DNA of 64,000 nucleotides from a virus (IMGVR_UViG_3300031963_000066:20668-84667); one strand, 5' to 3'. Counted from the first letter of the stretch, positions 58,843-64,000 are shown. A program made the numbers and translations. The notes: generated from the sequence alone by a model not told the origin.

Positions 58843-59484
58843 ATGATTTGTAAAATTTGTCACAAAAAAAACGATAACATTAGAAAATTGTCGAAACATA
58901 TACGAGATTATCATAAAGATATTACTATAAAAGAATATTATGATGTTTATATAAAGACAAAAACTGAAGGACAGTGTGTTATTTGTGCAAATGCAACAAA
59001 ATATTCAAATTTAGGCTCAGGTTACAGTAAAACTTGTTCAACATCTTGTAGTGCTAAATTATTTCGATTCAATTTAAAATCAAATGAAGAAAGGTATGAC
59101 AAATTTAAACAAAAAATAAGTGATAATATGATAAAAGAATGGAAAAAAAGAGAAAAAACCGGTAAAAAAGATGAAATAATAGAAAAGGCCAAAAAAACTA
59201 AAAAAGAAACAATAGAAAATATGTCTTATGAAGAAAAAATACAAAAATTTGGTTGGATTAATAAATTGAGTGAATCCGAAAAACAAAAATTCATTCAAAA
59301 AAATTATTGGGAAACTTTATATAAGTATTGGCAAGAAATTACTGATGAACAATTTATGAAAATAACAAAAAAAAGATTAAATACAATGTCTGAAAGACAA
59401 AAATCTGATTATGTTTATTTGATTACCGAAAAAGATAAAGAAATTATTGACAATAAATTAAAAGAACTACTTAACATAAAATGA
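58843..59484 (+). CDS. Lys-rich zinc-finger protein, homing-endonuclease-like DNA-binding region without an obvious nuclease domain
   Basis: CKIC...HIRDYH (C2H2) and CVIC...CSTSC; very A-rich; ATGA overlap with gp4. Confidence 0.65.
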   Translation: MICKICHKKNDNIRKLSKHIRDYHKDITIKEYYDVYIKTKTEGQCVICANATKYSNLGSGYSKTCSTSCSAKLFRFNLKSNEERYDKFKQKISDNMIKEWKKREKTGKKDEIIEKAKKTKKETIENMSYEEKIQKFGWINKLSESEKQKFIQKNYWETLYKYWQEITDEQFMKITKKRLNTMSERQKSDYVYLITEKDKEIIDNKLKELLNIK

Positions 59485-59918
59485 AATATTTGCAAGGAAA
59501 ATATATAGTTCGTCATCCAGAAAAATATTTAGGTGACCATTCTAATGTAATTTATAGGTCTTCCTGGGAATTAAAATTCTTATCTTGGTGTGATAACAAT
59601 GAAAATGTGGTTGGATTTGCTTCCGAAGAAATAATAATACCCTACAAATCACCAGTTGATGGTAAATATCATAGATATTTTGTAGATTGTCTTGTAAAAG
59701 TCAAAGATAAAAATGGTGTGATAAAGACACACCTAATAGAAATAAAACCCAAGAAACAAACCATGGAACCAGACAAAAAGAAAAGAGTCACAAAACAGTA
59801 CATACAAGAAGTCGTAACATGGGGTGTCAATCAGGCCAAATGGAAGGCTGCAACAGAATATTGCTTGGATCGTGGTTGGGAATTCAAACTTATAACGGAA
59901 GACCATCTCGGACTATAA
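59481..59918 (+). CDS. gp4: Head completion protein (TnsA-like nuclease fold)
   Basis: KYLGD...YRSSWE, SEEIIIPY, HRYFVD, IEIKP and NQAKW.AA motifs. Confidence 0.92.
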   Translation: MKYLQGKYIVRHPEKYLGDHSNVIYRSSWELKFLSWCDNNENVVGFASEEIIIPYKSPVDGKYHRYFVDCLVKVKDKNGVIKTHLIEIKPKKQTMEPDKKKRVTKQYIQEVVTWGVNQAKWKAATEYCLDRGWEFKLITEDHLGL

Positions 59919-59929
59919 CTAAATATCCG

Positions 59930-60544
59930 ATGATAACAAAATCCATACTCACTACACTGACAGAAGAAAAAGTCTCGGCCAACCATCAAACGATGAGCCG
60001 AGAATCTATGACATGGTTATTAAAACGAATTGCAGATTTAAGAAACCCTGGCCGCCTGTCGATTCCTATAACTAAAGAAAAGTCACGATGGACACGTCCA
60101 ACTGATAGACAAAAGTTCTTGATGGGTGGTTTATACTACTTTGTATATGATCCTAAAGGCAAAAATGATTTACCATATTATGATAGGTTTCCACTGGTTT
60201 TGCCTCTAAAACGACAATCCGATGGTTTTATAGGGTTAAACATACACTATTTGCCACTTCGTTATAGATTAGTTTTTATGAAGAAGTTGGAGAATTTTGC
60301 AATTTACAATGATGAGGATGAGATTAAAAGAATTCGTATCACATATCCAATGTTAGATGCATCGTCTAGGTTAAAAGAATTCAAACCATGCATCAAACAT
60401 TATCTGTATAGCCACATTAAATCCAGAATATTGGCTGTTGAACCTAACGAATGGGATGTTGCAATGTACTTGCCTGTACATCAATTCAAGAAGGCACAAC
60501 CAAAAGAAGTCTGGAAAGACTCATTAGAAGAAATAAGGAACTAA
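59930..60544 (+). CDS. gp2: DNA end protector protein
   Basis: YDPK.K..LPYYDRFPL and GLNIHYLP motifs. Probable start is the ATG at 59930, after the gp4 stop and a late-promoter-like ACTAAATA at 59918-59925. Confidence 0.9.
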   Translation: MITKSILTTLTEEKVSANHQTMSRESMTWLLKRIADLRNPGRLSIPITKEKSRWTRPTDRQKFLMGGLYYFVYDPKGKNDLPYYDRFPLVLPLKRQSDGFIGLNIHYLPLRYRLVFMKKLENFAIYNDEDEIKRIRITYPMLDASSRLKEFKPCIKHYLYSHIKSRILAVEPNEWDVAMYLPVHQFKKAQPKEVWKDSLEEIRN

Positions 60545-60545
60545 G

Positions 60546-61247
60546 ATGCCAGTTTCAATTAGCGGTTTTAAATCATCTTTCACCGGCGATTTGGCCAGAC
60601 CGAATCGTTTTGAGGTGGATGTTCCTATTCCTGTTACACTATTGGCTTATGTGAAAACCAATAGAAACCTGAAATATAGATGCGAGAACGCAAATCTACC
60701 AGGTAGAACTCTTGCAACAATCGAACAAAAGACCTATGGTCCTGTTGAAAAGTTTCCATATCAAAACACATACAGTGACATTGATTTGACATTTATTGTT
60801 GATGATGATATGTCACAAAAAGTATTCTTCGATGCATGGTTGAACTTTATCAACCCGTTGTACAACAATAATTTCAGATACAAGAGTGATTATTGTAGTG
60901 ATTTGACAATAACACAATATGATGTGACAAACCAACCATCATATTCTTGCAACTTGTATGAGGCATTTCCAATCGCAATAAACCAAATGGACCTAGATTG
61001 GTCTAATGATGGTTACCACAAACTGTCTGTGACATTTGCATATACTTACTGGAAGAACAATTCTCTCCAAGGCCTTGCCATGGAACTGTTGGACTCTCAG
61101 ATTGGAAATCTTACCGACAAATACGGTGGCCTTGGTGGTACTACCAAAGGTGCTGTCGGTGCAATTACTGATAGTGCCATCGGTGCCATCGGTTCGGGAA
61201 TTGATTCGATTGGAAAGAGTGCTGATAATATTAATGGATTTGTATAA
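60546..61247 (+). CDS. Baseplate tail-tube initiator (gp54 / gp19 paralogue)
   Basis: LARPNRFEV, CENANLPGR, EAFPI..DLDW and VTFAYTYW: tube-protein fold. Confidence 0.8.
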   Translation: MPVSISGFKSSFTGDLARPNRFEVDVPIPVTLLAYVKTNRNLKYRCENANLPGRTLATIEQKTYGPVEKFPYQNTYSDIDLTFIVDDDMSQKVFFDAWLNFINPLYNNNFRYKSDYCSDLTITQYDVTNQPSYSCNLYEAFPIAINQMDLDWSNDGYHKLSVTFAYTYWKNNSLQGLAMELLDSQIGNLTDKYGGLGGTTKGAVGAITDSAIGAIGSGIDSIGKSADNINGFV

Positions 61248-61263
61248 TTAAATTGGAGAAATT

Positions 61264-61989
61264 ATGGCTTTACCTAAACTTGATGTGCCAACATACGAAA
61301 TTGAATTACCAATTTCAAAGAAGAAAATTAAATATAGACCTTTTCTAGTTAAAGAACAAAAGAACTTGTTGATGGCTCTGGAATCAAATGAGTCCTCAAC
61401 GATTCAACAGAATGTCCGTGACATACTAAACAATTGTACCTTGACTGAAGGTATCAATATCGACAAATTGCCGATCATTGATGTTGAATATTACTTCATC
61501 AATCTAAGAAGTAAATCTGTTGGTGAAATTGTGGAGACCAGATACCGTTGTAATAATGAGGTTGAAGAAAAGGTTTGTGGTAACATTATGGAAGCAAGTG
61601 TTAACCTACAGAACATTCAACCATACCGTGAAGAAGAAGTTAGTCCAGAAATTCAATTGACTGACAAGGTTATGATTAAGATGAAGTATCCAGAATTTGG
61701 TATCATCAAAGATTCTATTAACATGGATGATATTACTGAGGTGACTTTCAACTTGATTTCAGAAAGCATTGAACACATTTATGATGGTGACCAATTCTAT
61801 TATGCACATGAGGCCGAACCAGGTGAAATGTTGGAGTTTGTTGAAGGTCTGAATCAGGCCCAATTTGAAAAGGTTGAACACTTCTTTAATAACTTACCAA
61901 AGTTAAAAGAAACTGTTGAGATGACTTGTAGTAAATGTGGTTTTCATCACACGATTGATGTAGAAGGTCTCGAAAATTTTTTCGGTTGA
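61264..61989 (+). CDS. gp26: Baseplate hub assembly protein
   Basis: MALPKL..PTYE, YRPFLVKEQK.LL, LRSKSVGE and CxxC...EGLENFF motifs. Confidence 0.9.
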   Translation: MALPKLDVPTYEIELPISKKKIKYRPFLVKEQKNLLMALESNESSTIQQNVRDILNNCTLTEGINIDKLPIIDVEYYFINLRSKSVGEIVETRYRCNNEVEEKVCGNIMEASVNLQNIQPYREEEVSPEIQLTDKVMIKMKYPEFGIIKDSINMDDITEVTFNLISESIEHIYDGDQFYYAHEAEPGEMLEFVEGLNQAQFEKVEHFFNNLPKLKETVEMTCSKCGFHHTIDVEGLENFFG

Positions 61990-62171
61990 CGCTGCGTCAC
62001 GATAACTTGAGGAATTATTACAAAACTAATTTCTCTTTGATGCAGCATCACAAATACAGTTTGACAGAATTAGAAGCTATGTTGCCATGGGAAAGAGATA
62101 TCTATGTCTCTATGTTGATTCAGTATATTGAGGAAGAAAATCAAAAAATAAGAGAACGACAAAAGAGATAA
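61986..62171 (+). CDS. gp51: Baseplate hub assembly protein, short ORF in the -1 frame (probably expressed as a frameshift extension of gp26)
   Basis: YYKTNFSLMQHHKYSLTELEAMLPWERDIYV; TTG start with no properly spaced RBS; slippery site at 61977-61983. Confidence 0.85.
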   Translation: MTLRHDNLRNYYKTNFSLMQHHKYSLTELEAMLPWERDIYVSMLIQYIEEENQKIRERQKR

Positions 62172-63923
62172 ATGGCAAGAGACAACAGTAAGGATGTTAC
62201 TCATCAACAAACGATGAGTAAATTGTCCGAAAAATCAAAACAAACTTCAGCTTCATTGCTGAATTCCACCAAGGCCACACCTAAGGCTCTTGCGGATAGT
62301 GGCGACATGGATGGTGTTCTCGGTCAAATTTATCAGTTAATGGTTGATAATCGCAAAGATGAATTAGAACAAAGACAAATAGACGAAAAGAATAGTAAAA
62401 CCGATACCAGAAAAGAAGAAAGTCGCCATCAAGAATTGTTGAAGGCGTTAACGGTTCGTAGAAGACCAAAGCCTAAGAGGGTCATTCGCCGTGAGAAAAA
62501 GGCGGAAGAAAAAGAAGCAGCTAAACCAACTACACCGGCCAAAAAGCCAGCAGAAGCGGCCAAAAAGCCAGCTGAAGCGGCTAAGAAACCACCTGAGCCG
62601 GCTAAAAAGCCACCAGAACCAGCTAAGAAACCAGCAGAAGATACTGCTAAAAAGGCTGCCGAAGATAAAGCCAAGAAGGCTGCTGAAGATAAGGCTAAAA
62701 AAGAAGCTGAAGATAGAGCTAAAAAGGCTGCCGAAGATAAAGCCAAGAAGGCTGCTGAGGATAGAGCTAAAAAAGAAGCTGAAGATAAAGCCAAGAAGGC
62801 TGCTGAGGATAAGGCTAAACGAGAAGCTGAGGATAAGGCTAAAAAAGAAGCTGAGGATAGAGCCAAGAAGGCTGCTGAGGATAAGGCTAAAAAGTCTGCT
62901 GAACAGGTTAAACCACCTGAAGTTAAACCGCCACCAAAAGCTGAACAGGTTAAACCACCTGAAGTTAAACCGCCACCAAAAGCAGAAGCTGCACCTGCGG
63001 CACCAAAGCCAGCTCAAGTGAAGCCGCCGCCAAAAGCTGAACAAGTAAAACCTCCACCAAAAGCACCAACTACTAAAATTCCTCCAATTTCAGGTGGAAA
63101 AGGTGTAGTTATTGCTGCATTATTGGCTGCTGGGTTATCAGCAAAAGCTCAAGCAAATGTATTAGCACAAGTCGAAGCAGAATCAAATTTTGTTCCGAAA
63201 AGTGAAGATTTATACTATTCAGCCGATGGCTTGGCGAATACATGGCCAAATAGATTTGGCCAAAAAGGACCTGACGGTAAACTTTTAAAGGATAAAAATA
63301 ACAGAGTTTTACCAAATCAAATAGCGACAGATATAGCAAAAAATCCAGAAAAAATTGCTGAAGCTGTTTATGGAAAAAGAAAAGATTTGGGTAACACTGC
63401 TGACGGCGATGGTTTTAAGTATAGAGGACGAGGTTTTTTACAAATTACAGGAAAAGATGCATACAAATCTTTAGGTGATTATATTGGTGTAGATTTAGTA
63501 GGTGATCCAGATAAATTAAATGAAATTTCTGTTGCCGCAAAATCTATTCCTTGGTTCTTTTTAAAATATAAAGGATATCTGATTAAAAAACCACAAGATT
63601 TGGAAAATATAGGAACAGTTAGTAAAGCGGTTGGATTTCAAGATAAAAAATTAAAATCGGGTGAAATGGAATCAGAACATCGAGCAAAATTAGCTGAGAA
63701 ATATCAAGCTGAAGTTTCATCTACACCCGTGCCAAGTTCTGATACTGGTACCAAAGTTGACCAATCATCTAAAGAAAATGCAGACCTGAAAGAAAAGTTA
63801 AATAAAGATAAGTCGGCTCAAACAACGAACAATACCACTACGACAAACAACCAGACAAACAATGTTAAACCTGAACAAAAGGTTGACGATAGACCACCTT
63901 ATGCAAGAAAGCAACAACAATAA
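62172..63923 (+). CDS. Virion (tape-measure-region) protein with A/K/E- and Pro-rich repeats and a glycoside hydrolase family 19 muramidase domain
   Basis: AQVEAES, LGNTADGDGFKYRGRGFLQITGK and DLVGDPD GH19 motifs; lies directly after gp26/gp51. Confidence 0.8.
   Translation: MARDNSKDVTHQQTMSKLSEKSKQTSASLLNSTKATPKALADSGDMDGVLGQIYQLMVDNRKDELEQRQIDEKNSKTDTRKEESRHQELLKALTVRRRPKPKRVIRREKKAEEKEAAKPTTPAKKPAEAAKKPAEAAKKPPEPAKKPPEPAKKPAEDTAKKAAEDKAKKAAEDKAKKEAEDRAKKAAEDKAKKAAEDRAKKEAEDKAKKAAEDKAKREAEDKAKKEAEDRAKKAAEDKAKKSAEQVKPPEVKPPPKAEQVKPPEVKPPPKAEAAPAAPKPAQVKPPPKAEQVKPPPKAPTTKIPPISGGKGVVIAALLAAGLSAKAQANVLAQVEAESNFVPKSEDLYYSADGLANTWPNRFGQKGPDGKLLKDKNNRVLPNQIATDIAKNPEKIAEAVYGKRKDLGNTADGDGFKYRGRGFLQITGKDAYKSLGDYIGVDLVGDPDKLNEISVAAKSIPWFFLKYKGYLIKKPQDLENIGTVSKAVGFQDKKLKSGEMESEHRAKLAEKYQAEVSSTPVPSSDTGTKVDQSSKENADLKEKLNKDKSAQTTNNTTTTNNQTNNVKPEQKVDDRPPYARKQQQ
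62539..63065 (+). repeat. Coding tandem repeats: 21-bp AKKPxEx, 24-bp AKKAAEDK and Pro-rich VKPPPKAEQ units
   Basis: Ten AKK/R-A/E-AED-K/R octamers follow five AKKP units; then several KPPPKA units. Confidence 0.9.
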
Positions 63924-63924
63924 A

Positions 63925-64000
63925 ATGGCTACAGATAATAAAATGTCATATCAGATGGCTGCGAGGTTGAAAAATCAATCTCTTGGTTCCGTTATTGCTG
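63925..64000 (+). CDS. 5' fragment of the next gene (runs off the window)
   Basis: ATG 1 nt after the previous stop; reads MATDNKMSYQMAARLKNQSLGSVIA, open to the window end. Confidence 0.6.
   Translation, partial: MATDNKMSYQMAARLKNQSLGSVIA

What the first reader, a model, noticed from the sequence alone, without database searches (positions are those of the whole stretch)
61960..62171. Candidate programmed -1 ribosomal frameshift fusing gp26 to gp51 (lambda G/GT-like switch in a T4-like phage)
Seen: gp26 ends GAA AAT TTT TTC GGT TGA. The heptamer T TTT TTC (61977-61983) is a perfect X XXY YYZ slippery site. A -1 slip reads TTT TTT CGG TTG ACG CTG CGT CAC, which is exactly the gp51 frame, and gives a product of about 302 aa beside the 241-aa gp26. 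gp51 itself has only a TTG start with no well-spaced RBS. An SD-like AGAAGGT (61962-61968) ends 8 nt upstream of the heptamer, and a small hairpin TGACG-ctg-CGTCA (61987-61999) lies just downstream. The pair sits immediately before the tape-measure-region gene. Established: lambda G/GT-type tail assembly chaperones are made by a -1 frameshift just upstream of the tape measure gene, and an internal SD stimulates frameshifting in dnaX. Inference: the genes annotated 26 and 51 here are one recoded chaperone locus; I do not know of this being described for T4-like phages.
Basis: partly seen in the sequence, partly recalled or inferred. Interest (0 to 1): 0.85.

Follow-up and report, generated by a model that had tools for sequence, protein, structure and literature searches.

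The report
Frameshift joins gp26 to gp51
In this uncultured T4-like phage, the baseplate-hub chaperone gene very probably makes a 241-residue and a 302-residue protein because some ribosomes slip back one base on a strictly conserved TTTTTTC; phage T4 makes the same pair from two separate genes (26 and 51).

Summary
gp26 (61264-61989, PF12322) ends AAT TTT TTC GGT TGA. T TTT TTC (61977-61983) is in slip register, and the -1 frame is the 61-codon 'gp51' ORF.

Comparative evidence strongly supports a programmed -1 ribosomal frameshift:
- 112 of 113 distinct junctions, from at least five phage families, keep T TTT TT[C/T/G] in register. gp26 identity among them falls to about 25%.
- A second conserved Phe-Phe in the same gene uses all four codon pairs.
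- Third-position variability follows the 0 frame up to the heptamer and the -1 frame immediately after it.
- 43 of 112 junctions have no ATG/GTG/TTG before the conserved peptide. The window's TTG is TTA in its close relatives.
- T4-type gp51 is a full PF12322 domain plus a tail homologous to the 61-aa ORF, which is the predicted 302-aa product. Tevenvirinae gp26 has lost the heptamer (GAA TTC TTT).

The proposed stimulators are weak. The small hairpin and a larger predicted stem are not conserved, and the SD-like pairing is -3.9 kcal/mol. The downstream gene's identity as a tape measure is unverified.

I found no published report or joined annotation. Earlier agents of this scan reached the same reading in other genomes. 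There is no protein-level evidence.

The parts
61264..61989 (+). gp26 ORF (0 frame): the 241-aa short product, a baseplate hub assembly chaperone
   Evidence: PF12322 T4_baseplate, E 1.2e-56. phrog_150 baseplate hub, E 5.9e-62. AF2 model pLDDT 87.3.
61977..61983 (+). Slippery heptamer T TTT TTC, in X XXY YYZ register of gp26
   Evidence: Sequence. Invariant in 112 of 113 distinct junctions (110 TTTTTTC, 1 TTTTTTT, 1 TTTTTTG). Zero entropy at its synonymous positions. U_UU.U_UU.C is an efficient heptamer in E. coli (PMC4066793).
61983..62171 (+). -1 frame extension: 62 codons (CGG ... AGA), then TAA. This is the 'gp51' tail of the 302-aa long product.
   Evidence: phrog_634 baseplate hub assembly catalyst, E 6.2e-29, and the phrog_150 C-terminal columns 236-276. 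Homologous to residues 202-244 of T4-type gp51, E 2e-5. Codon periodicity in this frame starts right after the heptamer.
61987..61989 (+). gp26 stop codon TGA, one codon after the heptamer
   Evidence: The 0-frame stop lies exactly one codon after the heptamer in 109 of 112 junctions.
61962..61968 (+). SD-like AGAAGGT, 8 nt 5' of the heptamer: a possible weak stimulator
   Evidence: Anti-SD duplex -3.9 kcal/mol, 12th percentile in its own gene. Across relatives the mean is -6.2 against -1.3 kcal/mol at control positions, and 75% fall in the top decile of their own gene. The signal is confounded by the conserved Glu-Gly codons.
61987..62050 (+). Predicted long-range stem with an inner hairpin: a possible lineage-specific stimulator
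   Evidence: MFE -21.5 kcal/mol, z -4.25. The pairs are kept only in the 8 or so closest relatives and are broken in 39-45 of 47 clade members. No consensus structure across families.
60546..61247 (+). Upstream neighbour: a tail-tube-family protein (gp19/48/54-like)
   Evidence: PF23849 and PF06841. phrog_45 tail tube, E 4e-46.
62172..63923 (+). Downstream neighbour: 583-aa protein with A/E/K/P repeats, a hydrophobic segment and a GH19-like lysozyme domain. It may be the client or tape measure; its identity is open.
   Evidence: PF00182 below cut-off. phrog_181 endolysin, residues 323-468. Tandem repeats of 21, 24, 72 and 42 nt. No family hit for its N- and C-terminal parts.

Best explanation
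This is a programmed -1 ribosomal frameshift.

How it works:
- Most ribosomes translating gp26 read AAT TTT TTC GGT TGA and release the 241-aa chaperone.
- A fraction slip back one base on U UUU UUC. The P-site and A-site tRNA-Phe re-pair with UUU UUU.
- These ribosomes then read CGG TTG ACG... for 62 more codons and release a 302-aa protein: gp26 residues 1-240 plus the 'gp51' tail.
- The two proteins share the PF12322 body, whose N-terminal part looks like a tail-assembly-chaperone fold. They differ by a helical C-terminal tail.

Function, by analogy: T4 gp26 and gp51 are both hub assembly chaperones, and gp51 is absent from the virion. Lambda G/GT and P2 E/E+E' work the same way. So the pair would act in a fixed ratio during assembly of the baseplate hub and the tail-tube core.

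Shown here: the anatomy, the nucleotide-level conservation of the heptamer, the switch of coding frame at the heptamer, the lack of start codons in many lineages, and the match to the architecture of T4 gp51.

Inferred: that the slip is ribosomal, its efficiency, and the chaperone roles of the two forms.
For: - Anatomy verified.
- 112 of 113 distinct junctions carry T TTT TT[C/T/G] in register. They come from the window's freshwater clade, cyanophages, Pelagibacter phage Mosig, Vibrio ValKK3, Aeromonas P19, Sinorhizobium phiM19, Rhizobium N34 and Stenotrophomonas Ps15. The 0-frame stop lies one codon later in 109 of 112.
- The synonymous positions of the heptamer have zero entropy, while neighbouring third positions have 1.1-1.9 bits. 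The preceding codon always ends in T although its residue varies (AGT, AAT, TCT, GAT, GCT). The other conserved Phe-Phe of gp26 uses TTC-TTT 46, TTT-TTT 34, TTC-TTC 14 and TTT-TTC 11 times; the junction pair is TTT-TTC in 110 of 112.
- Third-position variability switches from the 0 frame to the -1 frame at the heptamer. The conserved peptide is FF|R-[ILV]-x-[LMF]-x-H-x-x-L-x-x-Y-Y.
- 43 of 112 junctions have no ATG/GTG/TTG in the -1 frame before +36. The window's TTG is TTA in most of its own clade.
- The -1 frame is closed 0-57 nt upstream of the heptamer, so the shift must occur there.
- T4-type gp51 (250 aa) is PF12322 over residues 1-201 plus a tail homologous to the window's 61-aa ORF. 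It aligns colinearly through the junction.
- In four Tevenvirinae genera, which carry a separate long gp51 gene, gp26 ends GAA TTC TTT: the heptamer is lost.
- Of 16 TTTTTTC in the window, only this one is in register in a long ORF.
- U_UU.U_UU.C is among the efficient heptamers in E. coli and is used by IS elements (PMC4066793). P2 E/E+E' slips on TTTTTTG without a hairpin (PMC3091744).
- The 150 best of 5034 family representatives are all short forms, so the two-frame layout is maintained rather than fused.
Against: - No protein, ribosome-profiling or reporter data exist; the efficiency is unknown.
- No stimulator is conserved across families.
- The window's predicted stem is not kept beyond its nearest relatives, and its SD-like element is weak.
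- 69 of 112 junctions, including this window (TTG 61986), do have some start codon early in the -1 frame. Independent or coupled initiation of a small gp51 cannot be excluded as an additional route.
- Ackermannviridae-like phages (Dickeya Ds20CZ, Vibrio K483) lack the heptamer and have a TAATG-coupled ATG. The tail may therefore work as a separate small protein in some lineages.
- The same product would arise if RNA polymerase added one U in the T run.
Confidence: 0.85

Rival explanations
1. Transcriptional slippage. RNA polymerase adds one U within the T6 run in a fraction of transcripts. Standard translation of those mRNAs then gives the same 302-aa protein.
For: The product is identical to the -1 frameshift product, so comparative protein-level evidence cannot separate the two. 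T runs are slippage-prone in principle (PMC5009743).
Against: - The run is held at exactly six T followed by C in 110 of 112 junctions. It is always in ribosomal X XXY YYZ register and never the equally long TTT TTT register. Polymerase slippage would favour longer runs and would be indifferent to register.
- From my own knowledge, known bacterial cases use runs of about 9.
- RNA-library contigs from four lake metatranscriptome studies span the junction with no inserted letter. This is weak, because contigs drop rare variants and may include DNA.
Confidence: 0.05
2. No recoding. gp51 is made only as a small separate protein, by initiation or termination-reinitiation at TTG 61986 (overlapping the TGA) or at ATG 62040. 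The TTTTTTC is conserved for another reason.
For: - This window has TTG overlapping the gp26 stop (TTGA).
- 44 of 112 junctions have an ATG soon after the heptamer.
- Ackermannviridae-like phages have a coupled ATG and no heptamer.
- All 20 GenBank or RefSeq records fetched annotate two genes or none, and none has a joined CDS.
Against: - TTG becomes TTA (not a start codon) in most of the window's own clade while the peptide R-L-T-[LF]-R-H-D-N-L is kept through synonymous changes.
- 43 of 112 junctions have no start codon before the conserved peptide.
- The Arg codon directly after the heptamer, upstream of any candidate start, is conserved with a free third position.
- This reading offers no explanation for the invariant synonymous T's, nor for the loss of the heptamer exactly where a long gp51 gene exists.
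- There is no SD before TTG 61986 or ATG 62040.
Confidence: 0.06
3. Both routes operate. The frameshift makes the long form, and some lineages (possibly this one, through TTG 61986) also make a free small gp51.
For: Start codons are present in 69 of 112 junctions alongside the invariant heptamer. The Ackermannviridae-like state shows that a free tail can exist.
Against: The start codons are not conserved in position or kind. In T4-type phages only the long form is encoded.
Confidence: 0.25

Closest known systems
Phage T4 gp26 and gp51, baseplate hub assembly chaperones (Leiman et al. 2010, PMC3004832)
   Same: Homologous. The window's gp26 is PF12322. T4-type gp26 and gp51 are both full-length PF12322. 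The gp51 C-terminal tail matches the window's -1 ORF (E 2e-5). So there is a short form and a long form sharing one body.
   Different: T4-type phages encode the two forms as separate, divergently transcribed paralogous genes, and their gp26 has no slippery heptamer (GAA TTC TTT). Here one gene plus a frameshift would give both. Which state is ancestral was not resolved.
Lambda gpG/gpGT and the conserved -1 frameshift of tail assembly chaperone genes of long-tailed phages (Levin 1993 and Xu 2004, cited via PMC5009743)
   Same: - Two products share an N-terminus.
[quoted passage not shown]
- They have an assembly-chaperone role and are not virion components.
- The gene lies next to tube-family and large downstream tail genes.
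- The N-terminal 95 residues of the gp26 model best match the HK97 tail assembly chaperone 2ob9 (Z 6.5), YqbN 3klu (Z 6.8) and 3fgx (Z 7.9); the next hit scores 4.3.
   Different: - No sequence similarity.
- gp26 is twice as long and has an extra Cys-rich domain.
- The heptamer is U UUU UUC, whereas lambda uses G GGA AAG (from my own knowledge).
- The client is taken to be the baseplate hub. The tape-measure identity of the downstream gene is unverified.
- The review states that G-T frameshifting is conserved 'except T4'.
P2 E / E+E' (Christie 2002, cited via PMC3091744)
   Same: A myovirus tail chaperone pair made by a -1 frameshift on a T6-type heptamer (TTTTTTG), with no downstream hairpin. 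Rhizobium phage N34 uses the same TTTTTTG at its gp26 end.
   Different: A different protein family and size (91 and 142 aa). It lies between the tube and tape measure genes of a P2-type tail module.
E. coli dnaX gamma/tau frameshift, with its internal SD stimulator
   Same: A -1 slip on a homopolymeric heptamer with an SD-like element about 10 nt upstream. Most relatives have GA[AG]GG at -14 to -10.
   Different: Here the SD-like letters also encode a conserved Glu-Gly. The pairing is weak in this window (-3.9 kcal/mol) and absent in some lineages (ACTGGA, TCTGGA). The dnaX details are from my own knowledge.

Membership tests
-1 programmed ribosomal frameshift site | X XXY YYZ heptamer in the 0-frame register | tested here: met
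   T TTT TTC at 61977-61983, with AAT TTT TTC as the gp26 codons.
-1 programmed ribosomal frameshift site | Heptamer conserved at synonymous positions across diverged homologues | tested here: met
   112 of 113 distinct junctions. Zero entropy at positions 0 and 3. The control Phe-Phe uses all four codon pairs.
-1 programmed ribosomal frameshift site | The overlapping -1 ORF is under protein-coding selection from the shift site onward, without needing its own start | tested here: met
   The periodicity switches at the heptamer. 43 of 112 junctions have no ATG/GTG/TTG before +36.
-1 programmed ribosomal frameshift site | A stimulatory element: a 3' structure 5-9 nt downstream, or a 5' SD-like element | tested here: inconclusive
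   - Window stem z -4.25, but not conserved.
- A third of junctions, mostly cyanophage, have strong hairpins 4-6 nt downstream.
- The SD-like element is enriched overall but weak here.
- Such elements are not obligatory: P2 has none.
-1 programmed ribosomal frameshift site | The trans-frame protein is detected | not testable with these tools
Tail assembly chaperone pair of G/GT type | Short and long products share an N-terminus, and the long one arises by a -1 shift near the end of the first ORF | tested here: met
   241 aa and 302 aa, with the shift 2 codons before the stop. This is computational only.
Tail assembly chaperone pair of G/GT type | Tail-assembly-chaperone fold | tested here: inconclusive
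   VIA-align top hits for residues 1-95 are 3fgx (Z 7.9), 3klu (6.8), 2ob9 HK97 chaperone (6.5) and 5ir0 (5.6), with the next at 4.3. All are below the tool's Z 8 caution line. Foldseek found nothing significant: 2ob9 E 2.3, 3klu E 2.5.
Tail assembly chaperone pair of G/GT type | The gene lies between the tail tube gene and the tape measure gene | tested here: inconclusive
   The upstream gene is of the tube family. The downstream 583-aa protein has repeats, a hydrophobic segment and a lysozyme-like domain, but no tape-measure family hit.
Tail assembly chaperone pair of G/GT type | Binds the tape measure and tube proteins; absent from the virion | not testable with these tools
   Only by analogy: T4 gp51 is required for assembly but is not in the particle (PMC3004832).
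T4 gp26/gp51 family (PF12322) | PF12322 T4_baseplate domain above the gathering score | tested here: met
   192.3 bits against a cut-off of 24.5.
T4 gp26/gp51 family (PF12322) | A gp51-type C-terminal tail following the PF12322 body in one polypeptide | tested here: inconclusive
   The tail is homologous and colinear with T4-type gp51. Here it joins the body only if the frameshift occurs.

The most novel reading that the evidence does not exclude
gp26/gp51 of T4-like phages are the long-missing counterpart of the lambda G/GT and P2 E/E+E' tail assembly chaperones. On this reading, a -1 frameshift on U UUU UUC is the general state of T4-like myoviruses (Kyanoviridae, non-Teven Straboviridae, Emdodecavirus, Pootjesviridae, Menderavirus). 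T4 and its close kin are then the exception: they replaced recoding by a gene duplication that hard-wires the short and long forms. This would remove the 'except T4' gap. It would also explain why cyanophage 'gp51' appears to lack its first ~200 residues.
Probability: 0.6. Interest if true: 0.75.

Novelty: new member of a known kind. Interest (0 to 1): 0.65.

Why it matters
[quoted passage not shown] This locus suggests the T4 lineage is not an exception in kind: most T4-like phages would use the frameshift, and T4 itself encodes the two forms as paralogous genes.
- **Explains an old puzzle.** Cyanophage and marine vibriophage gp51 is 'only ~20% of the length' of T4 gp51 (Sullivan 2010, PMC3037559).
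- **Corrects annotation.** In hundreds of genomes gp51 is truncated to an internal ATG, given ad hoc starts, or missed altogether.
[quoted passage not shown] The frameshift offers a route to test it by manipulating the ratio of the two forms.
- **Offers a natural experiment.** One can compare recoding with gene duplication as ways of making the same protein pair.

Tried and rejected
- Megablast of 60500-64000 against phages: no match.
- Consensus RNA structure over 47 diverse junctions: none.
- The window's own MFE stem tested on its clade: pairs mostly broken and little covariation. It is not claimed as a conserved stimulator.
- Foldseek against the PDB: nothing significant.
- Profile of 57 gp26 sequences against PDB sequences: only chance-level hits.
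- Pfam at E up to 10 on gp26 residues 1-100: no tail-chaperone family.
- Scans of viral contigs with ValKK3 gp26 and T4-type gp26 gave only 2 and 3 loci. The Tevenvirinae and Schizotequatrovirus samples are therefore small.
- RNA-library contigs of four lake metatranscriptomes cover the junction without an indel. Contigs cannot show rare U7 transcripts or prove transcription.
- Natural in-frame fusions in the protein database (P0001, P0004, P0010, P0014, 284-299 aa) are single sequences with differing junctions and may be homopolymer errors. They are not used as evidence.
- Long-form model of P0004: the body is confident, but the tail region 221-270 has low confidence (pLDDT 52-63) and ends in a confident helix at 261-293. 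No docking can be claimed.
- Tree of gp26 and gp51 N-domains: Tevenvirinae gp51 sits on a very long branch and the backbone is unresolved. The order of duplication versus frameshift is not settled.
- PHROG search of the N- and C-terminal parts of the 583-aa neighbour: nothing.
- Xu 2004, Christie 2002 and Xu 2013 are not held in the library. They are cited only through papers that are held.
- Six literature searches on this pair found no report of a gp26-gp51 frameshift; a broader tail-chaperone search turned up only the review's 'except T4' statement. Subscription journals are mostly not covered.

Full report
**Observation.** The window carries a T4-like tail and baseplate gene block on the + strand:
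- gp4-like head closure protein, 59481-59918
- gp2-like DNA end protector, 59819-60544
- a tail-tube-family protein, 60546-61247
- gp26, 61264-61989 (241 aa; PF12322 E 1.2e-56)
- a 61-codon ORF, 61986-62171 (phrog_634 'baseplate hub assembly catalyst', E 6e-29)
- a 583-aa protein, 62172-63923

gp26 ends GAA AAT TTT TTC GGT TGA. The run T TTT TTC (61977-61983) is in X XXY YYZ register, and the -1 frame is that of the 61-codon ORF. That frame is closed by TGA at 61956-61958, so entry is possible only between 61959 and the gp26 stop. The computed trans-frame product is 302 aa with junction ...GLENFF|RLTLR. The record is an IMG/VR virus contig of 84,667 nt, about 51% complete, with a single PF12322 gene.

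**Is it more than chance?** The heptamer alone is not. TTTTTTC occurs 16 times in the window, fewer than the 28.8 expected. But the copy at 61977 is the only one in slip register inside a long ORF. The decisive evidence is comparative.

**Sample.** I collected 113 distinct junctions:
- 80 viral-contig loci of the window's own clade, 70-100% gp26 identity
- 80 loci around cyanophage S-PM2, 47-100% identity to S-PM2 and about 35-40% to the window
- cultured phages of several families

**Heptamer conservation.** 112 of the 113 carry T TTT TT[C/T/G] in register: 110 TTTTTTC, one TTTTTTT (phiM19) and one TTTTTTG (Rhizobium N34). The gp26 stop lies exactly one codon later in 109. Column statistics show zero entropy at heptamer positions 0 and 3, which are third codon positions. 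Other third positions nearby carry 1.1-1.9 bits. The codon before the Phe-Phe always ends in T although its residue varies (AGT, AAT, TCT, GAT, GCT). A second conserved Phe-Phe in the same gene uses all four codon pairs (46, 34, 14 and 11), against TTT-TTC in 110 of 112 at the junction. The selection is therefore on nucleotides, not on the protein.

**The -1 frame is read from the heptamer on.** Third-position variability follows the gp26 frame up to the heptamer and the -1 frame from the very next codon. The conserved peptide is FF|R-[ILV]-x-[LMF]-x-H-x-x-L-x-x-Y-Y. In 43 of 112 junctions the -1 frame has no ATG, GTG or TTG from its upstream stop until after this peptide. The window's TTG 61986 is TTA in most of its own clade, while R-L-T-[LF]-R-H-D-N-L is kept through synonymous changes. 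Initiation cannot supply these residues; continuation from gp26 can.

**A natural counterpart.** T4-type gp51 (250 aa; phages of Gaprivervirus, Moonvirus and Gelderlandvirus, plus Klebsiella phage Roth34) is a complete PF12322 domain (residues 1-201, E 4e-58) followed by a tail. That tail aligns with the window's 61-aa ORF (E 2e-5) and is colinear with the predicted fusion through the junction. These phages thus encode the short form (gp26) and the long form (gp51) as two divergent genes. In all four, gp26 ends GAA TTC TTT AAG: Phe-Phe is kept, but the heptamer is gone and the -1 frame is closed. Sullivan et al. 2010 had noted that cyanophage and marine vibriophage gp51 lack the first ~200 residues (PMC3037559). 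The frameshift supplies them.

**Exceptions.** Ackermannviridae-like phages (Dickeya Ds20CZ, Vibrio K483) have no heptamer and a small ORF starting at an ATG that overlaps the stop (TAATG). A free tail is therefore possible in some lineages. In-frame fused proteins in the databases are singletons with irregular junctions. The 150 best of 5034 family representatives are all short forms. The two-frame layout is thus the maintained state.

**Mechanism.** U_UU.U_UU.C is among the efficient -1 heptamers in E. coli and is used by IS elements (PMC4066793). P2 E/E+E' slips on TTTTTTG without a hairpin (PMC3091744).

The stimulators are uncertain:
- The window folds into a larger stem over 61987-62050 (-21.5 kcal/mol, z -4.25), but it is kept only in its nearest relatives. 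No structure is shared across families.
- About a third of junctions, mostly cyanophage, have strong hairpins 4-6 nt after the heptamer.
- An SD-like GA[AG]GG lies about 10 nt upstream in most relatives: -6.2 against -1.3 kcal/mol at control positions. It also encodes a conserved Glu-Gly and pairs weakly here (-3.9 kcal/mol).

Transcriptional slippage would give the same protein. It is disfavoured by the fixed length of six T, the strict ribosomal register, and, weakly, by indel-free RNA-library contigs.

**Comparison with known systems.** Both T4 gp26 and gp51 are listed as hub assembly chaperones, and gp51 is absent from the particle (PMC3004832). The AF2 model of gp26 (pLDDT 87) has an N-terminal domain (residues 1-95) whose four best structural matches are:
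- 3fgx, Z 7.9
- YqbN 3klu, Z 6.8
- HK97 tail assembly chaperone 2ob9, Z 6.5
- 5ir0, Z 5.6

The next hit scores 4.3. This is suggestive but below the tool's caution line. Foldseek and sequence profiles find nothing. The locus therefore works like lambda G/GT and P2 E/E+E'. Homology to them is plausible but not shown. The downstream 583-aa protein has A/E/K/P repeats, a hydrophobic segment and a GH19-like domain, but no tape-measure family hit. A tree could not order the Tevenvirinae duplication relative to the frameshift state.

**Novelty.** The Atkins et al. review states that G-T frameshifting is conserved in long-tailed phages 'except T4'. Six literature searches on this pair found no report of a gp26-gp51 frameshift, and a broader tail-chaperone search added only the review quoted above. 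None of the 20 GenBank or RefSeq records fetched annotates a joined CDS. Earlier agents of this scan reached the same reading on other genomes. I re-derived each point here. I class it as a new member of a known kind: the frameshifted tail-assembly chaperone pair. Confidence that a -1 ribosomal frameshift operates is about 0.85.

Noticed in passing
window 62172-63923: A 583-aa protein. It has long tandem repeats (21-, 24-, 72- and 42-nt units encoding A/E/D/K- and P/K-rich stretches), a hydrophobic segment and a GH19/endolysin-like domain (residues ~323-468). It is similar in length to T4 gp29 (590 aa, from my own knowledge), but no tape-measure family hit was found. Relatives' neighbours at this position range from 529 to 1167 aa.
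   Followed up: partly
L092 (Dickeya phage Ds20CZ) 1990-2160; L183 (Vibrio phage K483) 1650-1800: Ackermannviridae-like phages lack the slippery heptamer (GAA ATT TTC ATT TAA; CTT TTC AAG TAA). Instead they have a gp51-like small ORF starting at an ATG that overlaps the gp26 stop (TAATG). In K483 this ORF is unannotated.
   Followed up: partly
L155, L168, L147, L144 and similar, 4-6 nt after the heptamer: Many cyanophage-clade junctions have a strong 11-12-bp hairpin (for example AAGTATGGCTCA...TGAGTCATACTT, -15 kcal/mol) right after the heptamer. Other clades use a different stem (GCCCTC...GAGGGC). The window's clade mostly has none. The stimulators seem to be lineage-specific.
   Followed up: partly
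L002 (S-WAM1), L005 (S-CAM4), L090 (Aeromonas P19), L001 (Mosig), L184 (Sf-CH8), L186 (S-RIM8): In deposited genomes gp51 is either not annotated at all or is truncated to the internal ATG (43-45 aa). This fits gene callers failing for want of a start codon.
   Followed up: yes
window, whole: TTTTTTC is under-represented (16 found against 28.8 expected from shuffles). Apart from 61977, it never lies in slip register within a long ORF.
   Followed up: yes
proteins P0001-P0031: The protein database's precomputed domains list a Pfam accession, PF28602, on the gp51 tail. It is absent from the local Pfam copy, which found no family for the 61-aa ORF. A few database proteins fuse the tail to the downstream gene instead (P0002, P0015).
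   Followed up: no
window 59819-59918: The longest ORF of the gp2-like DNA end protector overlaps the gp4-like head closure gene by 100 nt. The PHROG match begins at residue 33, so the true start is probably a later ATG.
   Followed up: no
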